Positions 14,112 through 47,600 are shown, counted from the first letter of the stretch. The stretch is 64,000 nt of DNA from an uncultured Candidatus Rokubacteria bacterium (GCA_963754315.1 CAVWFS010000019.1:849640-913639); one strand, 5' to 3'. Notes: a model not told the origin generated them from the sequence alone. Translations and numbers: made by a program.

Positions 14112-14220
14112 CAGCAGATACCGAATCAAGTGAGCGTCCCTCCACTTGTGTCGTGGACACCAGGGATCGTGTCCCCAGCAGTGGTGCACGAGCGGTGATT
14201 CGCGGAGGGCAGGTGCCCCT

Positions 14221-15109: not shown

Positions 15110-15407
15110 GCTTGTGTATCATGCTCGTCGGCTATCGAGCGGTGCCAACTCTACGGCGAAACGTGAGCCAGTGGCTGGACCAGGCGCCCCGGCTCGTCGC
15201 CGTGCATAGGGCAGTCGATGTTGCCAGTGATCCGCTCACCCCTGACCCTTGACGGCTGACCGCACAGGGTCGATCCTGATGGTCAGTGGGCATGGGGCGC
15301 CATTTCGAAAGAAGCACGCGGTGATTCGAGGCCGTCAGGCTGCGCTCGAGCTTCTCCTGTTCACCCTCGCCATATCTCTGCTGGTAGGAACCGCTCAGGG
15401 GCACACG

Positions 15408-16468
15408 ACTCCGATCGACATTCCGAGTGGGGTCTTCATTGCGCTGGAGCGGCCGGACTGGGGCCGGGGGCCGGCGCGGGAGACGAAGCACTCGACGTAC
15501 GCGCACAACCCGATCGACGGGCGGCTGTACCAGATGGGGGGGACTTTGGGGGGACGGTGGGGGGGTCGTCGTACCGGCAGGACATGTACTCGGTGTCGAT
15601 TGCGGAGCGGTGGGCGAGCCGGAACGACCGGAACGCGGGCTGGCGGCAGGAGTACCCGTACTGTGGGCCGGAGGGAGGGCGGCAGCCGAAGTCGCCGGAC
15701 TATGTCGGGTGGACGTGGGACACCAAGCGGCGGGTGTTCTGGAGCGTGCCGGGCACGTTTGTAATCCCGGCGGCGGTGTGTCCAGGCATCACGGCGAGCT
15801 GGGGGGACGACCCCCCGAAGTATTTGTTCAACCACCTGATGACCTTTGATCCCTTCGAGCCGGACCTGACCCAGCGCTGGCAGGACCGGGGGCGCGACAT
15901 TGGGCCGACGGCCGTGGACACGTGGATGAGCGTGTACGACGCGGGGACCGACAGTCTGATTCGCTTCGGGTGGGACGGGGCGCGCGGGGCGATGGTGAAC
16001 ATCTATGACATTACGGCCGGGCAGTGGACGGCGAAGTTGCTGGGGTTGAACGCGGTGGGGCAGGACATCCGGATCTTTAAGGAGATGCTGGCGGCGGACT
16101 GGGGGCAGCGGGTGATTTATGTGATCGACGGGATTGCGGGGCGGCTGCATCGCTACCGGGTAGATGGGCGGACGATCGAGGACCTGGGGGTGGTGCCGGG
16201 GGGCCCGATCGCCTATGCGGCCAACAATGATGCCTACGCGGTGTGGGACAGCCTGCACCGGGTGCTGTTCTTTTTCCGGATGGACACGAGCATCCTGCAC
16301 GTCTATCACCCGGACACGCAGGAGTGGGAGACGCCACCGCTGGTGACAGATCCGCCGGGGCTGACGCCGCACGTGCGGCACGCGGCGGTGTTCGACCCGT
16401 ACCAGAACGTGCTGGTCCTCCTGGGGACGACGGACACGGCGAACCCCTACATGTACCTGTACCGCTAT
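15408..16468. repeat. IR-B copy 1: ~1.06-kb segment ~97% identical (inverted) to 46406..47470 inside the giant gene
   Basis: Encoded proteins identical over long stretches (e.g. 'DIGPTAVDTWMSVYDAGTDSLIRFGWDGARGAMVNIYDITAGQWTAKLLGLNAVGQDIRIFKEMLAADWGQRVIYVIDGIAGRLHRYRVDGRTIEDLG'). Antisense/alternate-frame track ORFs are also near-identical (16243..16482+ vs 46293..46631-; 15395..16558- vs 45554..47050+), which proves DNA-level identity. Confidence 0.85.
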
Positions 16469-16525
16469 GCGGAAGAAGGTAGGCCGAGCACCCGGCTCTC
16501 CCTCAGTGGAATCCAGTTCCATGCG

Positions 16526-16888
16526 GGCCAGACGTTGAATCTCGGACTGTCCGTCCACAATCCCAACGAGAACTCACCTCTCGAGCTTTACGTCGGCGCC
16601 GTGCTTCCGGACGGGAAGACCCTGGTTCTGTTCTCTGGCCCCGGCGTCCTCGAGCGGACGGGATCGCTGTCCGCACTCGCCTCCCTGTCGCCGATGCAGG
16701 TCGTTCCCCCTGGCTTTCAGCTCGATGCACCGAGCTTTTTCCAGTACACGTTCCCCCCCGCCGGGGTCACTGCGAGCGGTGTCTACCGTGTGTTCTCGGC
16801 GTTGATCCGCCCGGCAAGCCTGGACGACAATGCCGTCGATCCCGACGATATCGTCGCCCTGAGCGTGGTCGAACTGAGTTTCGCGCCG
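16526..16888. repeat. IR-D copy 2 (partner of 12627..12989)
   Basis: See IR-D copy 1. Confidence 0.7.
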
Positions 16889-18168
16889 TGAGCATGCGCT
16901 GCACAATCACCTCAATGAGGTCTACTGCCATCGGGATACGGCCAGCCGTCCTCGTCATCCTCGCGATCGTCTTGCAACCCCTCTCGGTCAGCGCCAAGGA
17001 GATCGGACCCGAAGCGGACTGGTGCCGCGAGGCGAATACCCTGCCAGCCGGCGCTGAGCTCCTGCTACGTCCAGGCGACTACCACGGCCCTTGCACGATT
17101 CGGCGCGGGGAGGGAGGCGCGGGAGGGCCGATCTCCATTCGCGCCAAGGATCCCGACCGGCCCGCCCGCATCGTGTACTCCGGCGGCAGCCACAACGTGC
17201 TGAATATCCGTCGCGACGACGTGACCATCCGCGGTCTCGAATTCGGGCCGACACTACAGGATGTCGACGGCATCCGGATCTACGACGGCAACAGGATTAC
17301 CATCGAGGACTGCCACTTCTCGCAGATGGGTGGTATTGCCGTTGTGGCGAATTATGCCAACGTTCGCGACCTCACCATTCGGCGAAACGCCATCCGGCAT
17401 TCGAAGTCGACGGCGATGTACTTCGGGTGCCATGACGGGATCTCGTGCACCGCCTCCGATCTCGCTATCGAGCACAACTTTATCGACGGCGTTGATACCG
17501 AGCATGGGATCGGCTACGGCATCCAGATCAAACTCAACTCAACGGCAACCATCCGCGACAACGTGATCGTCAACACCAAGGGACCCGGCATCATGGTCTA
17601 CGGAGCGGCCGACCCCTCCCGCGTCAGCCTGGTAGAGAGGAACCTTGTGGCGGGCTCGCGCACCTCGTCGGGTATCGTGGTCGGCGGCGGTCCGGCGGTG
17701 GTTCGCAATAACGTCGCTCTCGCCAACGCCGAAGTCGGGGTCGGGCTTGAGGACTATCGCCGACGGGGACTCCTTCAGGGGATTCTAGTTGCTCACAACA
17801 CGCTGTACGGGAACAGCAAGGGCGCGATCGGCGTGCCCGCCTCCGGTCGCCTCGAAGCCAAAGTGATCAACAACGCGGCGCACGCCAAGGTCGGGACTCG
17901 GTCGTTGCCGGCCGACCGATCGGGTTTGCTCGCCAGGGGCAATGTCGACTGTTCCCTTGCCCCATGCTTCGGCAATCCGGAGGGGATGGACTTCTCGCCT
18001 CATGCCACCTCACCGCTCTTGGGTCGGGGGCGCCCCGAGGCTGACCAGAGGATGCCCGTAGACGACTACTTGGGGCGGCGGCGCGGAGGGTTGCCCACGC
18101 CCGGCGCATTCGACGGCGCGGCGGAGCCCCTTGTCATCGGCATCCAGCCGGGCGAGCGCCCTCGATGA
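16888..18168 (+). CDS. secreted right-handed parallel beta-helix (pectin-lyase-fold) protein, putative polysaccharide lyase/hydrolase (family C)
   Basis: Signal peptide. Repetitive beta-helix rungs ('NVLNIRRDDVTIRGLEF', 'IRIYDGNRITIEDCHF', 'IAVVANYANVRDLTIRRNAI', 'GIQIKLNSTATIRDNVI', 'GIVVGGGPAVVRNNVA'). ~45-50% identical to the C-terminal 380 aa of 44606..49180. Start overlaps stop of upstream gene (translational coupling). Confidence 0.7.
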   Translation: MSMRCTITSMRSTAIGIRPAVLVILAIVLQPLSVSAKEIGPEADWCREANTLPAGAELLLRPGDYHGPCTIRRGEGGAGGPISIRAKDPDRPARIVYSGGSHNVLNIRRDDVTIRGLEFGPTLQDVDGIRIYDGNRITIEDCHFSQMGGIAVVANYANVRDLTIRRNAIRHSKSTAMYFGCHDGISCTASDLAIEHNFIDGVDTEHGIGYGIQIKLNSTATIRDNVIVNTKGPGIMVYGAADPSRVSLVERNLVAGSRTSSGIVVGGGPAVVRNNVALANAEVGVGLEDYRRRGLLQGILVAHNTLYGNSKGAIGVPASGRLEAKVINNAAHAKVGTRSLPADRSGLLARGNVDCSLAPCFGNPEGMDFSPHATSPLLGRGRPEADQRMPVDDYLGRRRGGLPTPGAFDGAAEPLVIGIQPGERPR

Positions 18169-18375
18169 ACTCCCACGATCCACGCGCAAATGTGCTGCTC
18201 GTTTTGGGTCGTTGCTGCAATTTTTGCGGCTACCGACGGCAGAAATGTCTGATTCCCCGACGTTCGTTTCTCACTAATAGCCACTAACGCCTATCCCAAC
18301 CTGCCATCCGTGGAGCAACTCACGTGGCTGCGCCACATGGCTAACAAAATCAAACCCTTTCGTGACAGAACTCAA

Positions 18376-18390
18376 AGTGGCACCTGTCTT
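18376..18390 (+). promoter_or_regulatory. sigma-54 (RpoN) -24/-12 promoter element, TGGCAC-N5-TTGC, immediately upstream of EPS priming transferase gene
   Basis: Read directly: 'aaagTGGCACctgtcTTGCgacta', an exact match to GG-N10-GC spacing and consensus. ~18 bp upstream of GTG start at 18408. Two sigma-54 activators are encoded in the locus. Confidence 0.55.
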
Positions 18391-18407
18391 GCGACTAACC
18401 CACTCTC

Positions 18408-19781
18408 GTGCTCAGAGTATTCGGACACTACTTACCGGCGATCGCAGTCGTCTCAATCCTGGGGGACCTGGTCACCCTGACCGCATCTGTCCTCCTTGCT
18501 TCACAATCCGCGGGATGGATCGGCACGGGGCCGCTCTGGCCTAAGGCCCTTGCCGTGTGCGGTATCACGGTCTTCAGCATCTATGTCACTGATCTCTATC
18601 GAACCGATTCACGTCTGAACAGGCGCGAGCTGGTCGCGCGGCTGGTGGTCGCTCTGCTCGCAAGCGCGCTGGTTATGGCCGCGCTTGGTTTTGCTGTCCC
18701 CGCCCTGCGTTTCAGCCGCTCTGCCTTTGTCCAGATCTTCAGCGCCTTCGCGATCGGCCTTGTTCCCTGGCGAATTGTCTTGCACCGGATCTGTCTGAAT
18801 GGTCGCCTGCACGCGCGCGTCCTCGTGCTCGGGCTCAGCCGCGCGGCCGGGCGACTCGTCGAGCTGCGGACGACCGGCTCGCAACCCTTCGTGATCCTCG
18901 GCTTCCTGGATGACGCTCCCGATGCCCATGACAAGCTGCCCGCGGGGACGGAGCTCCTCGGTAAGCCGCGGGATCTCCTGAATCTCGTCGACGAGCTACG
19001 GCCAGACCTCATCGTCGTCGCTCTCTCCGACATGCGGGGAGCATTGCCGACGAGTGATCTACTCGAATGCCGCCTGCGTGGAATTCGGGTTGAGGAGTGG
19101 CCGACATTTTTTGAGAAGCAGACGGGGAGGGTGCTGGTCACCGATCTCCGACCGAGCTGGCTCATATTCTCCGATGGCTTCGTTTCGATCCAGATCACGC
19201 AGACGTTGAAGAAGGTTCTGGATCTTACCCTCGCCCTCTCCCTTCTCGTCCTCACACTGCCCCTCATGCTGCTGGTGGCAGTCTCCATCAGGCTCGATTC
19301 CAAGGGGCCGATCCTATTCCGCCAGCCCCGGGTCGGTCACAACAGCCGCATCTTCATGATCAACAAGTTCCGTTCGATGCGAGACAACGCCGAACGTGAA
19401 TCGGGGGCCGTGTGGGCTACCGCCGGCGATCCTCGGGTGACCCGAGTCGGTCGCATCATCCGGCGGACGCGGCTCGATGAGCTGCCGCAGCTCTTCAACG
19501 TGCTCCTGGGAGAAATGAGCTTCGTGGGACCCCGCCCAGAGCGGCCCGAATTCGTGCGCACGCTTCACCGACAGATCCCTTTCTACTCAGGCCGGCTTGC
19601 CGTCAAGCCAGGCATCACCGGATGGGCCCAGGTCCGTCATCACTATGCGGCCTCGGTCGAGGATGCGATGGAAAAGCTTCAGTACGACCTCTACTACATC
19701 AAGAACCTGTCCCCCTTCTTGGACATTCTCATCCTCCTCAGCACGATTCAGGTCGTGCTCTTCGCGCGAGGAGCACGCTAA
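18408..19781 (+). CDS. exopolysaccharide biosynthesis polyprenyl glycosylphosphotransferase (bacterial sugar transferase; EpsB/WbaP-like, PEP-CTERM-system associated)
   Basis: Multiple N-terminal TM helices. C-terminal Bac_transf domain '[31 protein letters not shown]...[10 protein letters not shown]'. N-terminus '[10 protein letters not shown]' typical of this family. Confidence 0.85.
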
Positions 19782-19785
19782 GCCG

Positions 19786-22059
19786 ATGGATCAGTGGCGT
19801 CTCGCTCATCGCATCGCCCTCGGGATCCTTCGCCGGCGCAAGACCCTCGCCGTGGTCACCTTCCTCTTGGCTGTGCTGGTGACCTTTCCCGCCGCCTATT
19901 ATCTGTCACATGAACCGCCTCGATACCAGGCGGTGGCCACGATTCTGCTCGAGGTCAAGCCCGATCGCGTCCCCCTCTTTCAGGAACTCTCGCCCATGCG
20001 GCCGCTGTCGGTCCAGATGGCCATCCTCCGCAGCCGGTCGCTCGCCGAGAGCGTCCTCAGCAGCCTGCCTCGAGCGTCGGTCCAAGATTTGACCGACAAC
20101 CTGTACTACGTCGATTACCTCCAGAAGCTCGTGAACCTCTATCATCGGCTGCTCGGAGTGCCACCGGTTACTTCGAGCTCACGCGGGGAGGCGGTGGCGG
20201 AGCTCCAGGGCGGGCGGATGAAGTTCGTTCCCCTCGGTGACGGCCTCGTGTCGGTCTCGGCCATCGCGTCCAAACCGGAGATCGCGGTGGACCTCGCTCA
20301 AACCTACATCGAGGTCCTTCTCGGCCGGACGCGAACGTTCAACATCGACGATGCGCGAGTGTCGCGAGAGTTCCTCGAGCAGCAGGTCGCCGACGTCAAG
20401 AAGAAGCTGCAGGCGAGCGAAGAATCGCTGCGCGTCTTCACCTCCTCCCACGGCGGCATCAAGGTTCCCGAGCAAAGCCAGGCGACGACTACCCAGCTCT
20501 CCCAGGCCGAGACGGCGCTGGCCGAGGTGCAAGCTAACCGGAAAATGATTGAATCCAGGCTAGCCGGGCTCCGCGAGAAGGTTGAGCAGCAGAAGCGGAC
20601 GCCATCCCCGGCCGTCTCGCTTGGCCCGGCCAGCACGCCGACGCCGTCCAGTGCGGCATCGCCTGAAGTGAGGCGATTGCGCGATCAGCTTGAACAGCTC
20701 GAGACGACGCTGCTCGATCTCCGCATGCGATTCACGGACGAGCATCCGCGGGTCAGACCCGTCAAGGACAAGCTCGCTGAGTTACGGAGCCAGCTCGGGA
20801 GTGCTGTCAAAGAGAGCACGATCGTCACGCCCATGGTAGGAGCGGTACCACCCTCGGAGAGGGTCAACTTTTCAGAGCAGCTCGTCGCTCTGGAAACCTC
20901 TCTGCTGGCCATGACCGCGCAGGAGGAGGCTTTACGCAAGCAAGCCGACACCCTGCGCGCCAGCCTCGCGGGATTGTCGCGAAGCGAGCTGGCCTACAGC
21001 CGTCTGGGACGTGAAGTCGACAGCAACCGTAACCTCTACTCTCTTCTCTCGGAAAAGCTCACCGCCGCCCGTATTCGGGAGCAGGGTGAGATGAAGGTCG
21101 TGAAAGTCATTGACCCGCCGGAGCTCGGGGTGAGCGCGAGCAACGACAAGCGCTTTAAGTTCCTGACCCTCGCGGCGGGCCTGGCCCTGCTCGTGGGGGG
21201 CGGGGTGCCCGTGGCCGCCGAGCTTCTCGGCAAGCACATCGAGTCGGAGGATGATGTTCATCAGGCGACCGATTTGCAGGTCATCGCCCTCGTCCCGCAT
21301 CGCCGCTCGGGCCGCCCCGTATTCACGGCAATCGCCGGCCTCGAAAGACCCCGCCAGTCCGAGAACGATATTATATTCAGCGAGGCGTTTCGATCCCTCC
21401 GGGTAGCCGTCCAGCTTGCTATGCGCTCGGACAACGTCCGCAGTCTTCTTATCGCCAGCGCGTCCCCCGGCGACGGCAAGACCACCGTGTTGATCAACCT
21501 CGGACTGGCCTTCAACGAGGGCGGAACGCACGTGGTGCTCGCCGATACCGATTTTCTTCGGCCAACGCTGCACAGCAGTATGCACGTGCCATCCACGGCC
21601 GGATTGGGTGAGGTCTTGCGGGCCGAGCGAACGCTCGATGACTCGCTTTTCCTGGTCGCCGACGGGCTGTGGGTGGCGGCCCCCGCCCACGGTATCGATG
21701 CCAGCGTCCGGGGGAGTCTTGCCACCAGCCGTCTGAAGGCCCTCGTCGGCGAGATGGCGACGAAGGCCGAGCTCGTGATCTGTGATTCGCCGCCGGTCCT
21801 CGCCGCCCCCGAGAGCCTCTTTCTGGGGTCTGCTGTCGACGCCGTCATCTTGGTCGTCAAGGCCGGTCGAACAAGCTTCCGGGACCTGGCCCGCACTAAG
21901 CGGAAGCTCGAAAGCGTCGGCGCCAGAATCCTGGGCGTGGTGATCAACGATTTGCCAGCCGCGACCCTGCGGCGGACGTATCGACGGTATGCCGCCAGCT
22001 ATCAGAAGGATAACGCCATGGTCAGGAAGATCGGCCCTTCGCAACCGCCGCATGAATGA
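19786..22059 (+). CDS. polysaccharide chain-length determinant fused to Wzc-type tyrosine autokinase (PEP-CTERM-locus ChnLen + TyrKin)
   Basis: Wzz-like N-terminal TM + long coiled-coil periplasmic region + second TM. C-terminal P-loop ATPase 'LLIASASPGDGKTTVLINLGLAF...VLADTDFLRPTLH...VICDSPPVLAAPE'. Start at ATG (M64 of track ORF) 4 bp after upstream stop. Confidence 0.85.
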   Translation: MDQWRLAHRIALGILRRRKTLAVVTFLLAVLVTFPAAYYLSHEPPRYQAVATILLEVKPDRVPLFQELSPMRPLSVQMAILRSRSLAESVLSSLPRASVQDLTDNLYYVDYLQKLVNLYHRLLGVPPVTSSSRGEAVAELQGGRMKFVPLGDGLVSVSAIASKPEIAVDLAQTYIEVLLGRTRTFNIDDARVSREFLEQQVADVKKKLQASEESLRVFTSSHGGIKVPEQSQATTTQLSQAETALAEVQANRKMIESRLAGLREKVEQQKRTPSPAVSLGPASTPTPSSAASPEVRRLRDQLEQLETTLLDLRMRFTDEHPRVRPVKDKLAELRSQLGSAVKESTIVTPMVGAVPPSERVNFSEQLVALETSLLAMTAQEEALRKQADTLRASLAGLSRSELAYSRLGREVDSNRNLYSLLSEKLTAARIREQGEMKVVKVIDPPELGVSASNDKRFKFLTLAAGLALLVGGGVPVAAELLGKHIESEDDVHQATDLQVIALVPHRRSGRPVFTAIAGLERPRQSENDIIFSEAFRSLRVAVQLAMRSDNVRSLLIASASPGDGKTTVLINLGLAFNEGGTHVVLADTDFLRPTLHSSMHVPSTAGLGEVLRAERTLDDSLFLVADGLWVAAPAHGIDASVRGSLATSRLKALVGEMATKAELVICDSPPVLAAPESLFLGSAVDAVILVVKAGRTSFRDLARTKRKLESVGARILGVVINDLPAATLRRTYRRYAASYQKDNAMVRKIGPSQPPHE

Positions 22060-22187
22060 CCACTGCCTGGCGACTGTTACCGGTCACCGTGCCATCGCCG
22101 TTAGCCTCAGCGGTCGCGGAGCAGCCGCATCGTCGACGTGCGGAGCATGCTGGGTGGCAACCGTCGTCGCATCGTGACCGTCTAAGC

Positions 22188-23042
22188 ATGCGCAACGCGC
22201 TCACCTTTGACGTCGAGGAGTACTTCCACGTGGAGGCATTCAAGGACATCATCGAGACCGACCGGTGGGCCAGCCTTGAGTCGCGGGTCGTGGCGAGCAC
22301 ACACCGGGTGCTCGATCTCCTCGAGGCGCGCCACGTGTCGGCGACGTTTTTTGTCCTCGGTTGGGTCGCCGACCGGCACCGGGCTCTCGTGCGCGAAATC
22401 CAGTCGCGAGGCCACGAGGTGGCTTGCCACAGCTACGCGCACCAGGTGATCTACACCATGGACCGTGAGGCTTTCCGGGCCGACGTACGCCGGGCGAAGC
22501 AAGCCCTCGAGGACGCGACGGGGGCCACGGTCCTAGGCTATCGGGCGCCCACGTTCTCTGTGGTGGAGCAGACGCTGTGGGCGCTCGAAGTCCTCGCCGA
22601 AGAGGGCTTTCGCTACGACTCGAGCATCTTCCCGATACGTCACGACCGTTATGGAATGTCCCAGGCGCCTCGCTTCCCGCACCGTGTGTCCTTGCCGAGC
22701 GGCGGAAGGATAGTGGAGTTCCCTGTGTCAACTATGAGGGTGGTAGGGCAGAACGTGCCCTTCTCGGGCGGGGGGTACTTTCGGGTAGCACCGTATCCTC
22801 TTGTCCGGGCTGCCTTACGCCATGTCAACCGGCGCGACCGGCTGGCAGCCATGGTCTATCTCCATCCTTGGGAGATGGACCCGGAGCAACCACGCTTTCC
22901 GGTCGGGGCGGTAGCACGCGTACGCCACTACGCCAACCTTGGCCAGACAGCCGCCAAGCTCGACCGCCTGCTTCAGGACTTCTCCTTCGCTCCGGCCTGT
23001 CAGGTGCTCGGCGAGCAGGGCTTCTGGGAGGTCACCGCGTGA
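22188..23042 (+). CDS. polysaccharide deacetylase family protein, PEP-CTERM-locus subfamily (XrtA-associated)
   Basis: N-terminus 'MRNALTFDVEEYFHVEAF...' and overall NodB-like core + C-terminal extension, characteristic of exosortase-locus deacetylases. Start at M45 of track ORF. Confidence 0.8.
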   Translation: MRNALTFDVEEYFHVEAFKDIIETDRWASLESRVVASTHRVLDLLEARHVSATFFVLGWVADRHRALVREIQSRGHEVACHSYAHQVIYTMDREAFRADVRRAKQALEDATGATVLGYRAPTFSVVEQTLWALEVLAEEGFRYDSSIFPIRHDRYGMSQAPRFPHRVSLPSGGRIVEFPVSTMRVVGQNVPFSGGGYFRVAPYPLVRAALRHVNRRDRLAAMVYLHPWEMDPEQPRFPVGAVARVRHYANLGQTAAKLDRLLQDFSFAPACQVLGEQGFWEVTA

Positions 23043-24134: not shown

Positions 24135-24143
24135 GAGCATCCG

Positions 24144-25166: not shown

Positions 25167-25252
25167 GCCGTGCGGATCCGCGCGCTCGCCAATCGTTCGC
25201 TGTTCGCTGTCGGGGTCGTAGCCGCCTTGCCTGTAGCCATCGAGCTGCCATC

Positions 25253-31851: not shown

Positions 31852-31854
31852 TAT

Positions 31855-33723: not shown

Positions 33724-33742
33724 TTCTTTGCGAGCGAAGATA

Positions 33743-34861: not shown

Positions 34862-34863
34862 CC

Positions 34864-37501: not shown

Positions 37502-37523
37502 GCGTGCGGCTTGGAGCGCGGAC

Positions 37524-39859: not shown

Positions 39860-40205
39860 GGCCAGTCATGGATCCCCGGCTCCCGGGATTATTGGCCTTA
39901 TTGGAGCGGAAGCAGCTTCAGGAGGCTGCGGCGGGGCCCTCCGTTCCCGTCAACGCGGTCATACTCGGGCGATTCCCCCCGCTACTCACAGTTGTTTGCC
40001 GGTATCAACTACCTTTGCGGATCATTGCCCAAGAGTACCGGTATCGCCTCAATCGCCTTCTCCATATCCTCTCCCCGCGATCGCGAGAGGTGTTGCGCAC
40101 CCCGCCCGCGGCGCCTTGTGCTGAAGACCCCGCGTCATTCGCGCGCGCGCTTCACCTCCCGATTCCCTTTCAGCAGACTGCGTCGGCCCCCGGGGGAGAC
40201 CTCTT

Positions 40206-41552
40206 GTGAGTTTGCCCAATGCCTTGATCGTGGAAGACGACGAGGCGATTCGTATTCAGTTGAAGTACGCGCTGCAGGGCGAGTTTCGGCTCACTTTCGC
40301 GGAATCCCGGCCGCAGGCACTCGCAGCCGCAGCCGCAGACCGGCCGGCGGTGGTTCTGCTCGATCTCGGGCTCCCGCCGAATTCCGACACCACCAGTGAA
40401 GGGCTCAAGACGCTCGAAGAGCTGTGTCAGTCGCCGGTCAAGGTCATTGTGCTCACGGGTCACAGCGAGCGCAAGAATGCCCTCGCCGCCGTTCACCTCG
40501 GCGCCTTTGACTACCAGCTGAAGCCCATCGATCTCGATACCCTGCGCGTGATGATGCGTCGCGCCGTCTACCTCTTGGAGCTAGACCACGAAGGCGTACC
40601 CTCCCTCGCCGGCCCGGACACTACCACCGCCCTCGAAGAGCTCCTCGGCACGACTCCCGCGATGCGGGAGATCTTCAGGATCATCCAGCGAGTGGCCAAG
40701 ACGGACGCCACCGTCCTCATTGAGGGTGAAAGCGGGACCGGCAAGGAGCTCATAGCGGCGGCGATCCACCAACGAAGCCCGCGCTGCTCCGCCCCCTTCA
40801 TCGCCGTCAACTGCGGCGCCATTCCCGAGACGCTGGTCGAGTCAGAACTGTTTGGCCACCAGGATGACGGCTTCACTCGCGCTAACGGCCCAAGCAAACT
40901 GGAGCTGGCCGATCACGCCACGCTCTTTTTGGGCGAGATCGGCGAGCTAAGCCTTCTCCTTCAGGTAAAGCTACTGCGCTTTCTCCAGCAGCGCACTATC
41001 GAGCGCAGCAGCCAGGAGGCGATGAAGCTCGATGTGAGGGTCATCGCCGCCACCGACCAGGACCTCAAGACACTCCTGAAGCTGAAGCGGTTTCGTCAAG
41101 ATCTCTACTACCGCCTGTCGATCGTGACCATCCGCGTTCCGCCTCTCCGCGAGCGCGGCGAGGACATCGCCTTTCTCGCCAACGCCTTCCTCCGGCGGAT
41201 CTGTCACCAGCATCGCAGAACGTCGACGTTCAGCCCGGAGGCCGTGAAGGCCATGATGGCCTACTCGTGGCCCGGAAACATCAGAGAGCTCGAGAACAAG
41301 GTCACCCGGTCTCTGATCATGGCGCAGGGGCGGACGATTGGTCCGGTGGAACTGGAACTCACGTCCCAACATGAAGGTCGCCCGGCTCTCCTCCGGCAAG
41401 CACGCCGGCACGCAGAGCGCCAGGCGTTGGTGACCGCTCTCGGTCGCAACCATGGGAACATCAGTCGGGCTGCGCGCGAGCTCGAGGTAAGCCGGCCGAC
41501 CCTCCACAGCCTACTCGACAAACACGCCATCGACGCCAAGACCTTCCGCTAA
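40206..41552 (+). CDS. prsR: sigma-54-dependent response regulator (PEP-CTERM-box response regulator PrsR-like) with canonical receiver
   Basis: REC domain with 'LIVEDDE' and phospho-acceptor 'VVLLDLGLPP', T ('VIVLTGHS') and K ('LKPID'). AAA+ 'GESGTGKELIAAAIH', 'ESELFGH', 'FRQDLYYRL'. C-terminal Fis HTH 'GNISRAARELEVSRPTLHSLL'. GTG start. Confidence 0.85.
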   Translation: MSLPNALIVEDDEAIRIQLKYALQGEFRLTFAESRPQALAAAAADRPAVVLLDLGLPPNSDTTSEGLKTLEELCQSPVKVIVLTGHSERKNALAAVHLGAFDYQLKPIDLDTLRVMMRRAVYLLELDHEGVPSLAGPDTTTALEELLGTTPAMREIFRIIQRVAKTDATVLIEGESGTGKELIAAAIHQRSPRCSAPFIAVNCGAIPETLVESELFGHQDDGFTRANGPSKLELADHATLFLGEIGELSLLLQVKLLRFLQQRTIERSSQEAMKLDVRVIAATDQDLKTLLKLKRFRQDLYYRLSIVTIRVPPLRERGEDIAFLANAFLRRICHQHRRTSTFSPEAVKAMMAYSWPGNIRELENKVTRSLIMAQGRTIGPVELELTSQHEGRPALLRQARRHAERQALVTALGRNHGNISRAARELEVSRPTLHSLLDKHAIDAKTFR

Positions 41553-41581
41553 GTCAACATGGCACCCCAGAGAATTAGTCA

Positions 41582-42724
41582 ATGAACGCTACGAAGCGGT
41601 ACGGGCTGGCGGGCGCCCTTCTTTTTTCCCTCTTTCTTTCCCAAGTCCTTGCCCGAGGCGAGGAAGCTTCCTTCGGTGCCGGCTGGTCCCCGCTGCCCAA
41701 CACGTCGCTGCGGACGGTGTGTCCCCCGAACACAGCCCAGTATGGGTTCGCCGACCGGTGCCAGAACGTGATTCTGGCCTGGAATGGCGGCGTGATTGAC
41801 ACACGGCGCGGTCGCCTGATCGTGTGGGGAGGGGGGCACAACGATTACCGGGGCAACGAGATCTACGCGATCACCGTCAAGCCACCGAAAGTTGAGCGAC
41901 TGACAAACCCATCGCCCCCGAATGTGCCCCTCAACACCACCAACTGCACGACCACGCTGGCGGACGGGACGCCCAACTCGCGGCATACGTACGGCGGTCT
42001 GGCCTACATCGAACACGTCGACCGCATGTTCGTCTACGGGGGAAGCCTGGGCTGCAGCCCTGGCCACTTCGGCGGTGATACCTGGACGTTCAGCTTTGCC
42101 ACCAACACGTGGCAGGCCATGAGGCCGTCGGGCCCACAGCCGCGCTACGACGCCGGCATTGTCGCCGCCTACGATCCCAACACCCGGAAGGTCTTCCTGC
42201 ACGACGCCTGGGATCTCTTCGCCTACACGTTCGAGACCAACAGCTACCAGCGGCTGGCCACCGGCAATCACATCGACTACCACATGACGGCGGCGGTGGA
42301 TCCTATACGCAAAAAACTCATCATCGTAGGGGGAACGGCCGGCAGCGGCGGCGGGGTCACCGTCTACGATATCGGAGCGCGAAGTGGATTCGGGCGGCAA
42401 CAGTGGACAACAACCGGCGGAGATCGAATCGTGCACACCGCATCGCCGGGGCTCGCGTACGATCCTGACTCCGACCGGATGGTGGCGTGGGCCGGCGGGG
42501 ATACGTTGCACAGCCTGAATATGGATACCCGAATGTGGACTGCGCACAGATTTTCGGGGGGACCGGATACTGCGCCAGAGAACGGAATGTTCGGGCGGTG
42601 GGGTTATTTGGCGCAGTACGGAGTGTTTGTCACGGTCACGAGCGTGGACCGTAATGCCTATGTTTTGCGCTTAACCAACGCACCACGCACGGACGACCCA
42701 GCGCCGGCTGGCGGTTCACGTTGA
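41582..42724 (+). CDS. secreted Kelch-like beta-propeller protein (family A paralog, no D domain)
   Basis: Signal peptide 'MNATKRYGLAGALLFSLFLSQVLA'. Residues 62-265 are 100% identical to residues 96-299 of the giant protein 44606..49180; flanks diverge. Confidence 0.75.
   Translation: MNATKRYGLAGALLFSLFLSQVLARGEEASFGAGWSPLPNTSLRTVCPPNTAQYGFADRCQNVILAWNGGVIDTRRGRLIVWGGGHNDYRGNEIYAITVKPPKVERLTNPSPPNVPLNTTNCTTTLADGTPNSRHTYGGLAYIEHVDRMFVYGGSLGCSPGHFGGDTWTFSFATNTWQAMRPSGPQPRYDAGIVAAYDPNTRKVFLHDAWDLFAYTFETNSYQRLATGNHIDYHMTAAVDPIRKKLIIVGGTAGSGGGVTVYDIGARSGFGRQQWTTTGGDRIVHTASPGLAYDPDSDRMVAWAGGDTLHSLNMDTRMWTAHRFSGGPDTAPENGMFGRWGYLAQYGVFVTVTSVDRNAYVLRLTNAPRTDDPAPAGGSR
41765..42376. repeat. IR-A copy 1: ~610-bp segment essentially identical (inverted) to 48389..49000
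   Basis: Main-frame proteins are identical. Alternate-frame track ORFs are identical too (41922..42122+ = 48643..48843-, 66 aa each; 42109..42468+ vs 48309..48656- identical for ~89 aa then diverge), which demonstrates nucleotide identity. Confidence 0.85.
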
Positions 42725-42763
42725 GCCGATCTTGCCGGAGACGAGCGAAAAGGAGTTAGGGTC

Positions 42764-43255: not shown

Positions 43256-43321
43256 CCCCGCCGGGGATGTGACCGTGCCCGCCCATGCCTCGGTTGTGAC
43301 AAAACCCGACAGAGTTGGCGC

Positions 43322-44509
43322 ATGAGGAGGCACGCTCGTTCCCTGCTGTTCGGGGGTCTGTTGCTCGGCAGCCTTATGATAGCGGTCGCGCGGATCGAAG
43401 GTGAGAGTGCTTCGCCGCCCGCATCATTCGTTCTCCCGAAGCCGATCGACATTCCGAACGGGCTGTTCGTGGCACTGGAGCGGCCAGACATCGGTCGGGG
43501 GGTGGCGGGTGAAACAAAGCACGTCACCTGGGCCCACAACCCTGTGGACGGGCGGCTGTACCAGATGGGGGGGGATTTCAGCGGGCCGGTGGGGGGGTCC
43601 TCGTACCGGCAAGACATGTACTCGGTGTCGATTGCGGAGCGGTGGGCGAGCCGGAACGACCGGAACGCGGGCTGGCGGCAGGAGTACCCGTACTGTGGGC
43701 CGGAGGGGGGGCGGCAGCCGAAGTCGCCCGACTATGTGGGGTGGACGTGGGACACGAAGCGGCGAGTGTTCTGGAACGTGCCGGGCACGTTTGTGATCCC
43801 GGCAGCGGTGGTGTGCCCGGGCGTCACGTCCAGTTGGGCGGACGATCCGCCGAAGTATCTCTTCAACCACCTGATGACCTTCGATCCGTTCGAGCCGGAT
43901 CTGACGAAGCGCTGGAAGGACGTGGGGACCAACATTGGGCCGACCCCGGTGGACACGTGGATGAGCGTGTACGACGCAGGGACCGATAGTCTCGTTCGTT
44001 TCGGGTGGGATGGCGGCCGCGGGGCGATGGTGAACGTCTACGACATCGCGAAGGGCCGGTGGGCGGAGAAGCCCCTCGGACGGAATGCTCTCGGGCAGGA
44101 CATCCGGATCTGGAAGGAGATGCTGGCGCCGGACTGGGGGCAGCGAGTGATCTACGCGATCGATGGGCTCGCGGGGCGGCTGCATCGCTACCAGGTGGAC
44201 GGGCGGACGATCGAGGACTTGGGGGCGGTGCCGGGGGGCCCGATCGCCTATGCGGCCAACAATGATGCCTACGCGGTGTGGGATAGTCTGCACCGAGTGC
44301 TGTTCTTTTTCCGGATGGACACGAGCATGCTGCACGTCTATCACCCGACTCGAAAGACCTGGGAGACCCCGCCGATGGCCACCGATCCCCCAGCGCTCAA
44401 ACCCCACGTCCGCCACGGGTTGGTGTTCGACTCATATCAGAACGTGCTAGTATTTCTCGGAACCACTGATACGTCGAATCTATATCTATACTTGTATCGC
44501 TACCGCTGA
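43322..44509 (+). CDS. secreted propeller-like protein (family B paralog, intact, no D domain)
   Basis: Signal peptide 'MRRHARSLLFGGLLLGSLMIAVA'. Shares 'PIDIPNGLFVALERPD...SSYRQDMYSVSIAERWASRNDRNAGWRQEYPYCGPEGGRQPKSPDYVGWTWD...' with 15249..16891 and the giant protein. Strand-like motifs (RLYQMGG, RVFWNVPG, VIYAIDG, VLFFFRMD, VLVFLGT) suggest a propeller. Confidence 0.7.
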   Translation: MRRHARSLLFGGLLLGSLMIAVARIEGESASPPASFVLPKPIDIPNGLFVALERPDIGRGVAGETKHVTWAHNPVDGRLYQMGGDFSGPVGGSSYRQDMYSVSIAERWASRNDRNAGWRQEYPYCGPEGGRQPKSPDYVGWTWDTKRRVFWNVPGTFVIPAAVVCPGVTSSWADDPPKYLFNHLMTFDPFEPDLTKRWKDVGTNIGPTPVDTWMSVYDAGTDSLVRFGWDGGRGAMVNVYDIAKGRWAEKPLGRNALGQDIRIWKEMLAPDWGQRVIYAIDGLAGRLHRYQVDGRTIEDLGAVPGGPIAYAANNDAYAVWDSLHRVLFFFRMDTSMLHVYHPTRKTWETPPMATDPPALKPHVRHGLVFDSYQNVLVFLGTTDTSNLYLYLYRYR

Positions 44510-44605
44510 CTGCCTCGGTCAGCCCCCCGCGGGCGAGCGTCGCCTCAGCCTGGAGTCGCGTCTCGGATCAGGATGTCAGCCAGTGTACCTGCTCGAGGCT
44601 GAAGA

Positions 44606-47600
44606 TCACTCGTGCAGTTCGAAGGCACCAACATCGGCGGCTCCGCTGCGCGGAACGTCCACGAAGTCATCGGCAGGTCGCCAGGGCTCAGGCCCGCTCC
44701 CCGCCGCGTCGATCAACGGACTGTTCGGAGCTGGCCAGAGGACGTAGGGCGGCGGCGGCATGGCTTGAACAAAGCACCCCGTCGTCGGTCCGCATGTGAT
44801 GTTCCCCAGGATGGTGCCGGCCGGCGAGCTCGGCCAGAGATCCGGAGTCCCCACCAGGGGCCGAATGGCGTTGAAGGCGATGACGTTGCCGCTCTGGTTG
44901 CCCCACCCCGCTACATTGATGCCGGAGTCGCTGTTGTCGAGTACCGTGTTGTGCACAATCCACACGTTCTTCTGCAAATTTCGACGCCCATAGTTCTGGG
45001 CGCTGATCCCCCCGAAGGCATTTCCGACTAAAACATTGTTCCACACGATGGCGGGGCCGCCCCCTACCACGATCCCGCCTTCCTCCAGCGACCCCTCCAC
45101 GTAATTCTTCTCGATAACACTGGGCGGATCGCCTCGGTTGGAGCCGTACACCATGATACCTGGTCCCTTCGTTCGGGAAATTGTGTTGCCCCGCACCGTG
45201 CCGTAGGAGTTCAGCTTGATCTGTAGGCCGTACCCGATGCCGTTCGAGGTGACCCCGTTGATCACGTTGTTCTCGACGAGCAGCTCCGTCACGTGACAAC
45301 TCGTGCCGTCGTGGCACCCGAAGTACAGCCCAGTCTGATTCAAGTCCTTGAAGAGGTTCTCGCGCACCGTGAGTCGGTGGCTATCCTGCGTGTTGGCACT
45401 GATGGCAATGCCCCCGATACCCTCGAATGTGTTCCGTTCGATCACGATATCGTGGGCGCTCCAGATCCTGATGGCATCCACGTCCTCCTGAGTCGGTGCA
45501 AACGCAAAACCCCGAATGTACAGATACCCCGCGCCCCGGAGCTCTAGGACGTTATGATTCGATCCCGCGTAGGCGAAGGTCGCCCGCGAGGAGTTTCCCT
45601 CGTCCTGAGATCGCATCACGATTGGCGCCGCCGCCGTGCCCACCGCCGTGATCCAACACGGACTGGTGTAGGAGCCGGCCACGAAGACGATCTCGGTACC
45701 GGGCTGCGCCTTGTTGAGGATGTTGCACCATGGATCCGCCGCGCCAACCTTGATTGTCGTGCCCGACTGAGCGATCGTGGCACTCGCCGTGTTGGAGTAC
45801 GGACCGAGATTGGCGGCCGCATCGGTGGCCCGCACCCGGTAGCTGTAGCTGGTGCCCGCCGTACGCCCCGTGTCACTGTAGACGGTCCCGCTCGGCGTGG
45901 CCACCTGAGCGAAACTGCTGCAGCCCGCGCCCTGGCACCGCTCCACCAGGTAACCCGTCACCTCAACGTTGTCCGTGGCCGCCGTCCAGCTGAGGTTGAT
46001 CTCGCTGGCGCTGGCCACCGTGGCGCCCAGGTTCGTGGGCGCCGTAGGCGTCATCGTGTCAGCGATCGTGGGCGCCGTGGGCGTCGTCGTGTCAGCGATC
46101 GTGGCACTCGCCGTGTTGGAGTACGGACCGAGATTGGCGGCCGCATCGATGGCCCGCACCCGGTAGCTGTAGCTGGTGCCCGCCGTACGCCCCGTGTCAC
46201 TGTAGATGGTCCCGCTCGGCGTGGCCACCTGAGCGAAACTGCTGCAGCCCGTGCCCTCGCACCGCTCCACCCGGTAACCCGTCACCCCAACGTTATCCGT
46301 GGCCGCCGTCCAGCTGAGGTTGATCTCGCTGGCGCTGGCCACCGTGGCGCCCAGGTTCGTGGGCGCCGTGGGCGTCGTGGTATCTCCCGTTCCGAAAGAC
46401 GGCCTGTAGCGGTAGAAGTACATGTAGGGGTTCGCCGTGTCCGTCGTCCCCAGGAGGACCAGCACGTTCTGGTCCGGGTCGAACACCGCCGCGTGCCGCA
46501 CGTGCGGCGTCAGCCCCGGCGGATCCGTCACCAGCGGTGGTGTCTCCCACTCCTGCGTGTCCGGGTGATAGACGTGCAGGATGCTCGTGTCCATCCGGAA
46601 AAAGAACAGCACCCGGTGCAGGCTGTCCCACACCGCGTAGGCATCATTGTTGGCCGTATAGGCGATCGGGCCCCCCGGCACCGCCCCCAGGTCCTCGATC
46701 GTCCGCCCGTCCACCCGGTAGCGATGCAGCCGCCCCGCAATCCCGTCGATCACATAAATCACCCGCTGCCCCCAGTCCGCCGCCAGCATCTCCTTAAAGA
46801 TCCGGATGTCCTGCCCCACCGCGTTCAACCCCAGCAACTTCGCCGTCCACTGCCCGGCCGTAATGTCATAGATGTTCACCATCGCCCCGCGCGCCCCGTC
46901 CCACCCGAAGCGAATCAGACTGTCGGTCCCCGCGTCGTACACGCTCATCCACGTGTCCACGGCCGTCGGCCCAATGTCGCGCCCCCGGTCCTGCCAGCGC
47001 TGGGTCAGGTCCGGCTCGAAGGGATCAAAGGTCATCAGGTGATTAAATAGGTACTTCGGCGGATCGTCCGCCCAACTGGACGTGATGCCCGGGCAGACCA
47101 CCGCTGCCGGGATCACAAACGTGCCCGGCACGCTCCAGAACACCCGCCGCTTGCTGTCCCACGTCCACCCCACATAGTCCGGCGATTTCGGCTGCCGGCC
47201 CCCCTCCGGCCCACAGTACGGGTACTCCTGCCGCCAGCCCGCGTTCCGGTCGTTCCGGCTCGCCCACCGCTCCGCAATCGACACCGAGTACATGTCCTGC
47301 CGGTACGACGACCCCCCCACCGTCCCCCCAAAGTCGCCCCCCATCTGGTACAGCCGCCCGTCGATCGGGTTGTGCGCGTACGTCGAGTGCTTCGTCTCCC
47401 GCGCCGGCCCCCGGCCCCAGTCCGGCCGCTCCAGCGCTATGAAGACCCCACTTGGAATGTCGATCGGGGTCCCCGGGCGCAGTGGCGGCGGAGCGCTGTT
47501 CGACACGGTCACCAGGCGGGCGGCCGCCGTGGCGCTGTTTCCGGCCGCGTCGCGGGCTACCGCCGTGAGCGTGTGCATCCCATCGCCCTCTGCCGTCGTG

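What the first reader, a model, noticed from the sequence alone, without database searches (positions are those of the whole stretch)
15408..47470. 1.06-kb ~97% identical inverted repeats 30 kb apart bracket the whole exosortase EPS locus
The B-family gene at 15.4-16.5 kb (+) and the B-domain of the giant gene at 46.4-47.5 kb (-) are near-identical at DNA level; alternate-frame ORFs also match. Between them lies the complete EPS locus (priming transferase through PrsR). Recombination between them would invert ~30 kb, re-pair gene 5' and 3' halves, and relocate the sigma-54 promoter-driven operon relative to flanking genes. This is a possible large-scale phase switch or simply a hotspot of genome instability.
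Basis: seen in the sequence. Interest (0 to 1): 0.7.

Follow-up and report, generated by a model that had tools for sequence, protein, structure and literature searches.

The report
Paralogous propeller-domain repeats homogenised by gene conversion
The two near-identical 1-kb inverted repeats are real, but they are copies of one protein-domain module from a multi-copy family of secreted beta-propeller genes in an exopolysaccharide locus, kept alike by ordinary gene conversion, not a dedicated switch for that locus.

Summary
15407-16467 (+) and 47471-46407 (-) align over 1,065 columns at 96.6% identity, with sharp ends.

It is not an isolated pair. The repeat encodes a 356-aa Kelch-like six-bladed propeller domain ("B"). 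B has a third copy in the window (43442-44503, about 85%) and a fourth elsewhere on the same 925,744-bp public contig. A second propeller family ("A", 3 copies) and a "C" module (2 copies) sit in the same genes.

Identity among copies is mosaic. A2 and the giant gene's A domain share a perfect 592-nt inverted tract flanked by about 65% identity. All three B copies share a perfect run of about 95 nt. One 70-nt patch holds half of the B1/Bg differences. A soil-metagenome relative (about 88% identical) already has the B-C junction followed by the beta-helix and priming-transferase genes. Taken with those tracts, gene conversion between old paralogs explains the near-identity better than a new duplication.

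No recombinase is present. The sigma-54-like promoter, the operon and PrsK/PrsR all lie inside the segment. XrtA-system genes also lie outside it. RecA-type inversion remains plausible, as with tufA/tufB, but could not be tested here. It would only swap the 3' tails of two accessory genes. Ordinary; modest interest.

The parts
15407..16467 (+). Left arm (B1): B-domain module inside the SP-B-C gene
   Evidence: 96.6% identical over 1,065 columns to 47471-46407; borders are sharp.
46407..47471 (-). Right arm (Bg): B-domain module, residues 571-926 of the giant protein
   Evidence: The AlphaFold2 model has pLDDT 93.3. The best PDB matches are Kelch propellers, TM 0.61-0.66.
43442..44503 (+). Third B copy (B3), inside the stand-alone secreted gene 43322-44509 (395 aa)
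   Evidence: 84-85% identical to both arms. It shares a perfect 95-98-nt run with them. An ortholog is present in the relative L002.
15321..16891 (+). B1 gene: signal peptide, B domain and C module, interrupted by a 1-nt deletion at 15541/15542. Restoring one base gives a 523-aa ORF.
   Evidence: The public protein P0003 starts at an internal Met.
44606..49180 (-). Giant gene (1,524 aa from ATG 49180): signal peptide, Kelch A, Big_7 x2, B, fn3 x2, right-handed beta-helix
   Evidence: Pfam and NCBIfam hits. P0067 matches it at 100%.
41763..42354 (+). Perfect 592-nt conversion tract in A2 (gene 41582-42724)
   Evidence: 100% identical to 49002-48411, with flanks at about 50-75% identity. 0 of 20,000 permutations reach this run length.
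48411..49002 (-). Perfect 592-nt conversion tract in the giant gene's A domain (residues 60-257)
   Evidence: Inside the tract both copies are 80-95% identical (mostly about 88%) to the relative's A2. Outside it only A2 is (about 90%, against 50-70% for the giant gene), which suggests A2 was the donor.
12624..14189 (-). A1 gene: Kelch A domain plus C module (the C module is 12624-13026)
   Evidence: Kelch hits. A is 67-69% identical to the other A copies. The C module is 81% identical to 16489-16899.
16489..16891 (+). C module at the 3' end of B1 (no Pfam family)
   Evidence: The B-end/C junction is conserved in the relative L009.
15763..15832 (+). 70-nt patch holding about half of all B1/Bg differences (20 of 39 differing columns, including the 3-nt indel). 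At most of them Bg equals B3.
   Evidence: Three-way alignment. Consistent with a short B3-to-Bg conversion.
14221..15109 (-). Degraded IS256/Mutator-family transposase between A1 and B1
   Evidence: PF00872 fragments in different frames: 4.6e-27 and 2.7e-08.
16888..18168 (+). Stand-alone secreted beta-helix gene downstream of B1
   Evidence: PF13229 and NosD hits. 41% protein identity to the giant gene's beta-helix tail. 90% ortholog in L009.
18408..41552 (+). Core XrtA-type EPS genes, all on +: TIGR03013 priming transferase, chain-length/tyrosine kinase, deacetylase, FemAB, AsnB x3, glycosyltransferases, O-antigen-ligase-like, PrsK, exosortase, PrsR
   Evidence: NCBIfam hits.
18378..18393 (+). 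Sigma-54-like -24/-12 element TGGCAC-N5-TTGCG, ending 15 nt before the priming transferase start
   Evidence: Three matches in the window against 1.4 expected, so statistically weak. It lies inside the bracketed segment.
45770..46384 (-). Two 324-nt tandem units (96% identical) encoding the fn3 pair of the giant gene
47486..48078 (-). Two units of about 291 nt (74-84% identical) encoding the Big_7 pair of the giant gene

Best explanation
The two arms are copies of one domain-coding module, 'B', a divergent six-bladed Kelch-like beta-propeller. B belongs to a family of secreted, modular accessory proteins built from the A propeller, the B propeller, the C module, Big_7, fn3 and a beta-helix. 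These genes are clustered within an XrtA-type exopolysaccharide region, flanking its central biosynthesis and regulation operon.

The arms are near-identical because homologous (RecA-type) recombination repeatedly copies stretches from one paralog into another. This is gene conversion, giving concerted evolution. The B1/Bg tract happens to cover the whole stretch over which the two genes are homologous, so identity stops exactly at the domain borders.

Shown: the copy number, the domain identity, the mosaic identity pattern, and the B-C junction upstream of the beta-helix and priming-transferase genes in a relative, which suggests the SP-B-C gene is old.

Inferred: the recombination pathway, and that the same exchanges sometimes resolve as crossovers. 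A crossover would flip the 30 kb between the arms. It would change only the two genes at the crossover. The giant gene would exchange its fn3-fn3-beta-helix tail for the C module. The frameshifted left gene would receive that tail. The EPS operon would move together with its promoter and regulators, so this is a by-product of paralogy and not a switch for EPS synthesis.
For: 1. Multi-copy family. B occurs three times in the window and once more on the same contig. A occurs three times and C twice.

2. Mosaic identity.
- A2 and the giant A domain share 592 nt at 100%, flanked by about 50-75% identity (0 of 20,000 permutations).
- B1, Bg and B3 share a perfect run of about 95 nt inside regions of 72-78% identity.
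- A 70-nt patch holds about half of the B1/Bg differences, and at most of them Bg equals B3.

3. Identity is not due to constraint. Inside the 592-nt tract the relative's A2 ortholog is only 80-95% identical.

4. The left gene appears to be old. L009, from a soil metagenome, is 88.6% identical and collinear with 16352-19723. It therefore carries the B end, the C module, the beta-helix gene and the priming transferase in the same order. B1 and Bg differ by only about 1.8% outside the patch. Their homogenisation is therefore much younger than that lineage split, provided L009's truncated B belongs to an SP-B-C gene.

5. The differences are mostly synonymous: 24 synonymous nucleotide changes against 8 amino-acid-changing codons. 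Both copies derive from functional sequence.

6. The modules are shuffled family-wide. A-B, A-Big_7-B, B-fn3-fn3, A-B-fn3 and C-B architectures all exist elsewhere. B genes elsewhere sit in polysaccharide loci beside Kelch and beta-helix genes.

7. Precedent. The tufA/tufB genes of Salmonella are 1,185-nt inverted repeats that evolve in concert by conversion (PMC5485169). Up to 50% of their recombination events give an inversion (PMC6735719, citing Hughes 2000).

8. No recombinase gene was found in the ORFs scanned, and the promoter, operon and regulators are all inside the segment.
Against: - A recent duplication or insertion of the B module would also give sharp borders at the domain edges. 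No full-length ortholog of the giant protein appeared among the listed hits (best local-alignment coverage 39%). The fourth copy, P0001, carries a remnant of the Big_7 end, so at least one copy arose by duplication of part of the giant gene.
- The relative's contigs do not cover a whole B1 or Bg, so the age of the B domain inside the giant gene is unknown.
- Direction and timing of conversion are inferred from one relative only.
- Nothing here measures whether inversion actually happens.
- The orientation of the 30-kb segment rests on a single public assembly.
Confidence: 0.72

Rival explanations
1. Recent module duplication (domain shuffling). One B copy was recently copied into, or fused with, another gene by illegitimate or IS-assisted recombination. 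The 97% identity then simply reflects the youth of the duplicate, not conversion between old paralogs.
For: - Identity ends exactly at the domain borders.
- No full-length ortholog of the giant protein was found among the listed hits.
- The fourth copy, P0001, is 99% identical to Bg and retains a piece of the Big_7 end, which shows that a duplication from the giant gene happened.
- An IS256 remnant abuts B1.
- Module shuffling is common in the family.
Against: - The B-end/C/beta-helix/priming-transferase order is already present in a relative about 11% diverged. If that truncated B belongs to an SP-B-C gene, B1 is not new.
- A-Big_7-B architectures exist in distant relatives (P0083 at 53%, P0317), so B after Big_7 is probably old too.
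- The other paralog pairs show internal conversion tracts that duplication cannot explain.
Confidence: 0.15
2. Selected, reversible inversion switch. RecA-dependent flipping of the 30-kb segment, and possibly of the nested 6-kb and 2-kb segments bounded by A2/Ag and B3/Bg, is used to swap heads and tails among the propeller genes or to modulate the EPS locus, as a form of phase or antigenic variation.
For: - The arms are in frame, so both orientations give open chimeric genes.
- The 5' ends of both genes lie outside the segment.
- The giant gene takes part in three nested inverted-repeat pairs.
- Recombination between the copies has clearly occurred.
- Reversible homologous inversions that change phenotype are known in S. 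aureus (PMC6778178).
Against: - No recombinase was found.
- The sigma-54-like promoter, the operon and PrsK/PrsR all sit inside the segment, so EPS expression is not rewired.
- The left gene is frameshifted, so one product of any crossover downstream of 15542 would be dead.
- GC skew of the inner segment has the same sign as the flanks (-0.032 against -0.019 and -0.039, p = 0.91). This is weak evidence, but it gives no sign of a recent flip.
- A2 and B3 are intact, secreted, conserved genes, not silent cassettes.
Confidence: 0.08
3. Assembly artefact. The near-identity, or the orientation of the segment between the arms, results from repeat collapse, consensus homogenisation or an arbitrary join in the assembly.
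For: - There are four copies at 97-99% identity and a 592-nt perfect inverted repeat.
- Several genes in the window are broken: B1, wecB and a PaaK-like ligase. This could indicate indel errors.
- The relative's contig L009 breaks inside B, which shows that such repeats do trouble assemblers.
- No independent assembly of this genome was available.
Against: - The copies are distinguishable. There are 32 substitutions plus 2 indels and the longest perfect run is 329 nt, so ordinary paired reads can phase them.
- The 1,559-codon ORF stays open across every junction.
- Independent metagenome contigs from a relative confirm the B-end/C/beta-helix/transferase junction and the PrsR/A2/small gene/B3/giant-3'-end order.
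- The differences are mostly synonymous, as expected of real paralogs.
Confidence: 0.05

Closest known systems
tufA/tufB of Salmonella enterica (concerted evolution of inverted paralogs by gene conversion, with associated inversions)
   Same: - The arms are protein-coding inverted repeats of about 1.1-1.2 kb in one chromosome, kept nearly identical.
- Exchange occurs in contiguous tracts that stop where homology ends.
- The same recombination can invert the intervening DNA (PMC5485169; PMC6735719).
   Different: - Here the repeated unit is a single domain inside otherwise unrelated multi-domain genes, not a whole essential gene.
- There are at least 4 copies plus two further module families.
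- The spacing is 30 kb, not 762 kb.
- One copy is frameshifted.
- Nothing has been measured experimentally.
Campylobacter fetus sap locus (RecA-dependent inversion that re-pairs a single promoter with alternative S-layer gene cassettes). Cited from my own knowledge; a library search for it found nothing.
   Same: Homologous inverted segments of paralogous secreted or surface protein genes could, by inversion, recombine gene heads and tails.
   Different: - In sap the conserved segment is the 5' end of each cassette, and the invertible piece carries the only promoter.
- Here the repeat is an internal domain, both genes keep their own 5' ends, and the segment carries a whole EPS operon with its own promoter and regulators.
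- No evidence of alternative orientations.
Unstable homologous chromosome inversions in Staphylococcus aureus that cause small-colony-variant switching (PMC6778178)
   Same: Inversion between long inverted repeats by general recombination, acting as a reversible source of variation.
   Different: - Those are very large rearrangements with a demonstrated phenotype and demonstrated mixed populations.
- Here the segment is 30 kb and no phenotype or mixed population is known.
Site-specific invertible elements (Hin/Gin, Fim, the Bacteroides Mpi-controlled capsule promoters, shufflons). Cited from my own knowledge.
   Same: Inverted repeats flank a segment associated with surface polysaccharide or surface protein genes.
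   Different: - Those use short recombinase-specific repeats and an adjacent recombinase gene.
- The invertible piece carries a promoter or alternative 3' exons.
- None of this is present here.

Membership tests
Concerted evolution of dispersed paralogs by gene conversion (tuf-type) | Two or more homologous copies in the same genome | tested here: met
   B has 3 copies in the window and 1 more on the contig. A has 3 and C has 2.
Concerted evolution of dispersed paralogs by gene conversion (tuf-type) | Paralogs within the genome are more alike than orthologs between relatives over the same stretch | tested here: met
   A2/Ag tract: 100% within the genome against 80-95% to the relative's A2. B1/Bg: about 98% outside the patch against about 88.6% for the window versus L009 overall. 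A full-length ortholog of B1 or Bg was not available.
Concerted evolution of dispersed paralogs by gene conversion (tuf-type) | Contiguous tracts of identity with abrupt borders, longer than the overall divergence allows | tested here: met
   Perfect runs: 592 nt for A2/Ag, 98 nt for B3/Bg and 95 nt for B1/B3, each 0 of 20,000 permutations. The 329-nt run for B1/Bg reached 2 of 20,000.
Concerted evolution of dispersed paralogs by gene conversion (tuf-type) | Dependence on the homologous recombination machinery (RecA, RecBCD/RecFOR), modulated by mismatch repair | not testable with these tools
   Needs genetics in the organism, which is known only from a public assembly.
Site-specific invertible element (invertase- or integrase-driven phase switch, shufflon) | Recombinase gene in or next to the element | tested here: not met
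   No invertase, integrase or resolvase family was found in the ORFs scanned across the window. The only hit of that general kind is a degraded IS256 transposase.
Site-specific invertible element (invertase- or integrase-driven phase switch, shufflon) | Short specific inverted repeats at the borders | tested here: not met
   The arms are 1,065-nt coding modules. Similarity ends at the domain borders.
Site-specific invertible element (invertase- or integrase-driven phase switch, shufflon) | Orientation decides whether a promoter is joined to its gene | tested here: not met
   The sigma-54-like site at 18378-18393, the core operon and PrsK/PrsR are all inside the segment.
Site-specific invertible element (invertase- or integrase-driven phase switch, shufflon) | Both orientations present in a population | not testable with these tools
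   No reads are available. The relative's contigs L002 and L009 lie wholly inside the segment or stop within a repeat.
Recombinational cassette variation (sap-, pilE/pilS- or vls-type) | One expression site plus silent, promoterless or truncated donor cassettes | tested here: not met
   A2 and B3 are complete genes with signal peptides, conserved in the relative. Only B1 is broken, by a single-base deletion.
XrtA/PEP-CTERM exopolysaccharide locus (genomic context) | Exosortase together with PrsK/PrsR, PrsT and the TIGR03013 priming transferase | tested here: met
   Above the curated cut-off: TIGR03013 472 bits, TIGR02602 133 bits, PrsT 559 bits, TIGR03006, TIGR03019, TIGR03097 and TIGR03087. 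PrsR (491 against 503) and PrsK (286 against 300) fall just below. The exosortase is below the XrtA-specific cut-off (155 against 208).
Kelch-type beta-propeller (fold of the repeated module) | Six-bladed propeller fold | tested here: met
   The AlphaFold2 model has pLDDT 93.3 and pTM 0.92. Foldseek top hits are MKLN1, LZTR1 and Keap1 Kelch domains, E 2e-11 to 1e-9, TM 0.49-0.66. Pfam Kelch models match only faintly.

The most novel reading that the evidence does not exclude
The giant gene is a recombination hub. It sits in three nested inverted-repeat pairs: A2/Ag (592 nt perfect, 6 kb apart), B3/Bg (2 kb apart) and B1/Bg (30 kb apart). RecA-mediated conversions and inversions among these pairs would act as a recombinase-free, shufflon-like system. 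That system would reshuffle propeller heads and C or fn3-beta-helix tails among five secreted exopolysaccharide-associated proteins, diversifying how the cell modifies or binds its own matrix.
Probability: 0.07. Interest if true: 0.6.

Novelty: new member of a known kind. Interest (0 to 1): 0.3.

Why it matters
The main value is as a caution and a small case study.

Long, near-identical inverted repeats around a gene cluster look like a switch. Here they are the visible tip of a paralogous module family undergoing concerted evolution.

The locus gives unusually clean conversion tracts. One is a perfect 592-nt tract with flanks at about 65% identity. There are also nested micro-tracts. These occur in an uncultured soil bacterium.

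The giant A-Big_7-B-fn3-beta-helix protein acts as a 'Rosetta-stone' fusion. It suggests that the A propeller, the B propeller and the beta-helix proteins, which are found as neighbours in many polysaccharide loci, work together on the exopolysaccharide.

For assemblers and annotators it flags a place where the orientation of a 30-kb block and the integrity of two genes should be checked with long reads.

Tried and rejected
- Looking up the window's own proteins (B3, P0001, P0003, P0067) with the look-up of encoding contigs found nothing on record. The fourth B copy could therefore not be located and the contig could not be extended.
- The single genome-contig scan with the B domain returned only one distant locus at 47% identity (L001). 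The source genome and its close relatives are not in that collection.
- The homolog search with the whole giant protein was swamped by Big_7-rich proteins. It listed no full-length ortholog.
- GC skew inside the segment against the flanks showed no sign change and no difference (p = 0.91). Third-position skew is confounded by gene strand. This is uninformative about past inversion.
- The relative's contigs L002 and L009 confirm local gene order. Both lie inside the putative invertible segment or end within a repeat, so they cannot tell the orientation.
- Rfam, tRNA and a regex for PEP-CTERM tails found nothing in the window.
- The silent-cassette (pilS-like) reading was rejected because A2 and B3 are intact, secreted and conserved.
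- A mobile-element origin for the arms was rejected. The IS256 remnant lies outside the repeat and shares nothing with the right arm.
- A library search for the C. fetus sap papers returned nothing.


Full report
**1. The observation**

A self-comparison of the window aligns 15407-16467 (+) with 47471-46407 (-). The alignment covers 1,065 columns at 96.62% identity, with 32 mismatches and 4 gap columns. The repeat finder reports the same pair as three ungapped pieces. A global alignment that includes 300-nt flanks shows that similarity begins and ends abruptly and is absent outside.

The gaps are a 1-nt deletion in the left copy at 15541/15542 and a 3-nt indel near 15779. This is far beyond chance, so the finding's coordinates and identity are correct.

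**2. What the arms are**

The right arm encodes residues 571-926 of a 1,524-aa secreted protein (44606-49180, minus strand). Its domains in order are:
- signal peptide,
- Kelch propeller 'A',
- two Big_7 domains (291-nt tandem units),
- the repeated 'B' module,
- two fn3 domains (324-nt tandem units, 96% identical),
- a right-handed beta-helix.

The left arm lies in a gene that reads signal peptide, B, then a 135-aa 'C' module. Its frame is broken by the 1-nt deletion. Restoring one base gives a 523-aa ORF starting at GTG 15321.

An AlphaFold2 model of B, built on 57 homologs, has pLDDT 93.3 and pTM 0.92. Its best PDB matches are Kelch propellers such as MKLN1, LZTR1 and Keap1, with TM up to 0.66. 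B is therefore a divergent six-bladed propeller, which Pfam detects only faintly.

**3. It is a family, not a pair**

- A third B copy is the stand-alone secreted gene 43322-44509, 84-85% identical to both arms.
- The window comes from a 925,744-bp NCBI/ENA contig. P0067 is the giant protein, P0068 is B3, and P0003 is the left gene called from an internal Met.
- That contig encodes a fourth B copy, P0001 (423 aa, 99% identical to the giant gene's B). It has different ends and a remnant of the Big_7 terminus, and it is not in the window.
- The A propeller occurs three times: 12624-14189 (-), 41582-42724 (+) and the giant gene's N-terminus.
- The C module occurs twice, at 81% identity (12624-13026 and 16489-16891).
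- A beta-helix protein is encoded separately after the left gene (16888-18168). It is 41% identical to the giant gene's tail.
- All of these proteins carry signal-peptide-like N-termini by eye (no predictor was run).

**4. Evidence for gene conversion**

Sliding-window identity is mosaic.
- A2 and the giant A domain share a perfect 592-nt inverted tract (41763-42354 against 49002-48411). Outside it, identity is 50-75%. A run of that length arose in 0 of 20,000 permutations, where the largest run was 65 nt.
- Within the tract, the A2 ortholog of a close relative is only 80-95% identical. The perfection is therefore not due to constraint. Because the tract resembles A2's ortholog at the usual ortholog level, A2 was probably the donor.
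- B1, Bg and B3 share a perfect run of about 95 nt, surrounded by 72-78% identity.
- About half of the B1/Bg differences (20 of 39 differing columns, including the 3-nt indel) sit in a 70-nt patch, 15763-15832. At most of them Bg equals B3, as expected of a short B3-to-Bg conversion.
- Outside the patch B1 and Bg differ by about 1.8%.
- The B1/Bg differences are mostly synonymous: 24 synonymous changes against 8 amino-acid-changing codons.

**5. Relatives**

Two contigs come from forest-soil metagenomes (ENA, HuB_forest).
- L002 is 85-90% identical and collinear with window 34529-45167. It carries AsnB, a methyltransferase, PrsK, the exosortase, PrsR, A2, the small 163-aa gene, B3 and the 3' end of the giant gene.
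- L009 is 88.6% identical and collinear with 16352-19723. It carries the last 116 nt of B, the C module, the beta-helix gene and the priming transferase.

The B-C junction therefore predates a lineage split of about 11% divergence, whereas B1 and Bg differ by 1-3%. Homogenisation is much younger than that junction, which favours conversion over a brand-new duplicate. One caveat applies: L009 begins inside B, so it does not show what lies upstream of B in the relative.

Both contigs lie inside the would-be invertible segment or stop within a repeat. Neither reveals the orientation in the relative.

**6. Wider family**

An exhaustive HMMER search finds 296 representative clusters with a B domain at E <= 1e-3. 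Their architectures include:
- stand-alone B,
- A-B (P0318),
- A-Big_7-B (P0317, and P0083 at 53% identity),
- Big_7-B with a peptidoglycan-binding tail (P0316, 61%),
- B-fn3-fn3 (P0321),
- A-B-fn3 (P0326),
- C-B (P0005).

In other genomes, B genes lie in polysaccharide loci next to Kelch and beta-helix genes (L003, L006). One locus has a tandem [GT2-GT2-B] duplication at 73-77% identity. Module shuffling and paralogy are thus normal for this family. The giant protein is one more combination. It also works as a fusion that links the A, B and beta-helix functions.

**7. Context, and the 'switch' idea**

The genes from the TIGR03013 priming transferase (18408) to PrsR (41552) are all on the plus strand between the arms. 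A sigma-54-like TGGCAC-N5-TTGCG element ends 15 nt before the first gene. It is statistically weak: 3 matches against 1.4 expected.

XrtA-system genes also lie outside the arms:
- PrsT (2868-6089, 559 bits),
- a second sigma-54 activator (8478-9893),
- the export protein (9922-10791),
- a candidate system-associated outer-membrane protein (10769-12586; weak TIGR03016 match, 30 bits against a cut-off of 91),
- TIGR03087-type glycosyltransferases and a UDP-glucose dehydrogenase (55-63 kb).

So the arms bracket the central 30 kb, not the whole locus.

No invertase or integrase was found in the ORFs scanned. The only mobile-element trace is a degraded IS256-family transposase between A1 and B1.

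An inversion by crossover within the arms would carry the promoter, the operon and PrsK/PrsR together. It would alter only the two genes at the crossover. The result would be A-Big_7-B-C on one side and SP-B-fn3-fn3-beta-helix on the other. The second product would inherit the frameshift if the crossover fell downstream of 15542.

GC skew gives no hint of a recent flip.

**8. How it most likely works**

The best-supported reading is concerted evolution of paralogous domain modules by general homologous recombination. The closest described system is tufA/tufB of Salmonella. Those are 1,185-nt inverted genes that exchange contiguous tracts about once per 10^5-10^6 generations (PMC5485169). Up to half of their recombination events produce an inversion (PMC6735719, citing Hughes 2000).

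By analogy, occasional inversion of the 30-kb block is likely. The same applies to the 6-kb and 2-kb blocks bounded by A2/Ag and B3/Bg. These would be a by-product, and nothing indicates selection for switching.

The rivals are recent module duplication, a selected recombinase-free switch, and assembly artefact. They are weighed in the structured fields. None is excluded outright, because no reads and no contig spanning a whole arm were available.

**9. Verdict**

This is a new example of a well-known process. Its side value lies in the clean conversion tracts and in the functional link among the A, B and beta-helix proteins. Interest 0.3.

Noticed in passing
window 41763-42354 (+) and 48411-49002 (-): A perfect 592-nt inverted repeat joins the stand-alone A2 gene and the giant gene's A domain, about 6 kb apart, with flanks only 50-75% identical. 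It is more identical than the flagged pair and is the clearest conversion tract in the window.
   Followed up: yes
window 23040-24134 (+): The wecB (UDP-GlcNAc 2-epimerase) reading frame is split over at least three frames (PF02350 pieces at 23169-23558, 23380-23649 and 23640-24134). It is a pseudogene or a cluster of indel errors inside the EPS operon.
   Followed up: partly
window 56670-58095 (-): A PaaK/F390-synthetase-like CoA ligase is split into an N-terminal ORF (57421-58095) and a C-terminal ORF (56670-57326). This is another broken gene in the locus.
   Followed up: no
window 14221-15109 (-): Remnant of an IS256/Mutator-family transposase with several frame breaks, directly upstream of the left arm's gene. 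An intact Transposase_mut gene also sits next to a B gene in L003.
   Followed up: partly
same public contig, outside the window (protein P0001): A fourth B copy (423 aa, 99% identical to the giant gene's B domain) begins with a fragment resembling the end of Big_7 and has a different C-terminus. Its location is unknown because the contig could not be fetched.
   Followed up: partly
window 15525-15560 (+): The frameshifting deletion in B1 removes a C between G-runs, giving G7...G6...G7 (the right arm has G6-C-G). It could be a real mutation, a sequencing error, or a slippage-prone site.
   Followed up: no
window 37524-39859 (+): The PrsK homolog matches only positions 235-677 of the 679-position model, so it has no N-terminal membrane part. 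The exosortase passes the general TIGR02602 cut-off but not the XrtA, XrtW or XrtV subtype cut-offs, so its subtype is unassigned.
   Followed up: no
window 26302-37110 (+): There are three AsnB-like XrtA-system amidotransferase paralogs (26302-28209, 31855-33723, 34828-37110). The first lacks the N-terminal 100 or so model positions. The latter two share DNA similarity of 66-68%.
   Followed up: no
window 6100-8450: About 2.3 kb between PrsT and the sigma-54 activator has overlapping ORFs on both strands with no Pfam hit and no clear codon-position GC signal. Its content is undetermined.
   Followed up: no
window 42764-43255 (+); L002 7905-8396: A small secreted 163-aa protein with no family match is conserved between A2 and B3 in both this genome and the relative.
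   Followed up: no
L006 1017-4179 and 7866-11271: In an unrelated MAG (GCA_030157225.1), a [GT2-GT2-B] block is tandemly duplicated at 73-77% DNA identity inside a polysaccharide locus. B-family expansion is therefore recurrent.
   Followed up: partly
L002 9239-9330 approx. (B3 ortholog, alignment columns 660-750): The relative's B3 has a tract of about 90 nt that is 98-100% identical to this genome's B1/Bg but only 87% identical to this genome's B3. This suggests conversions between B copies in the relative as well.
   Followed up: partly
whole window: A crude regular-expression search found no ORF with a PEP-CTERM-like C-terminal tail. The A, B and giant proteins end without one, so the exosortase's substrates are not among them.
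   Followed up: partly
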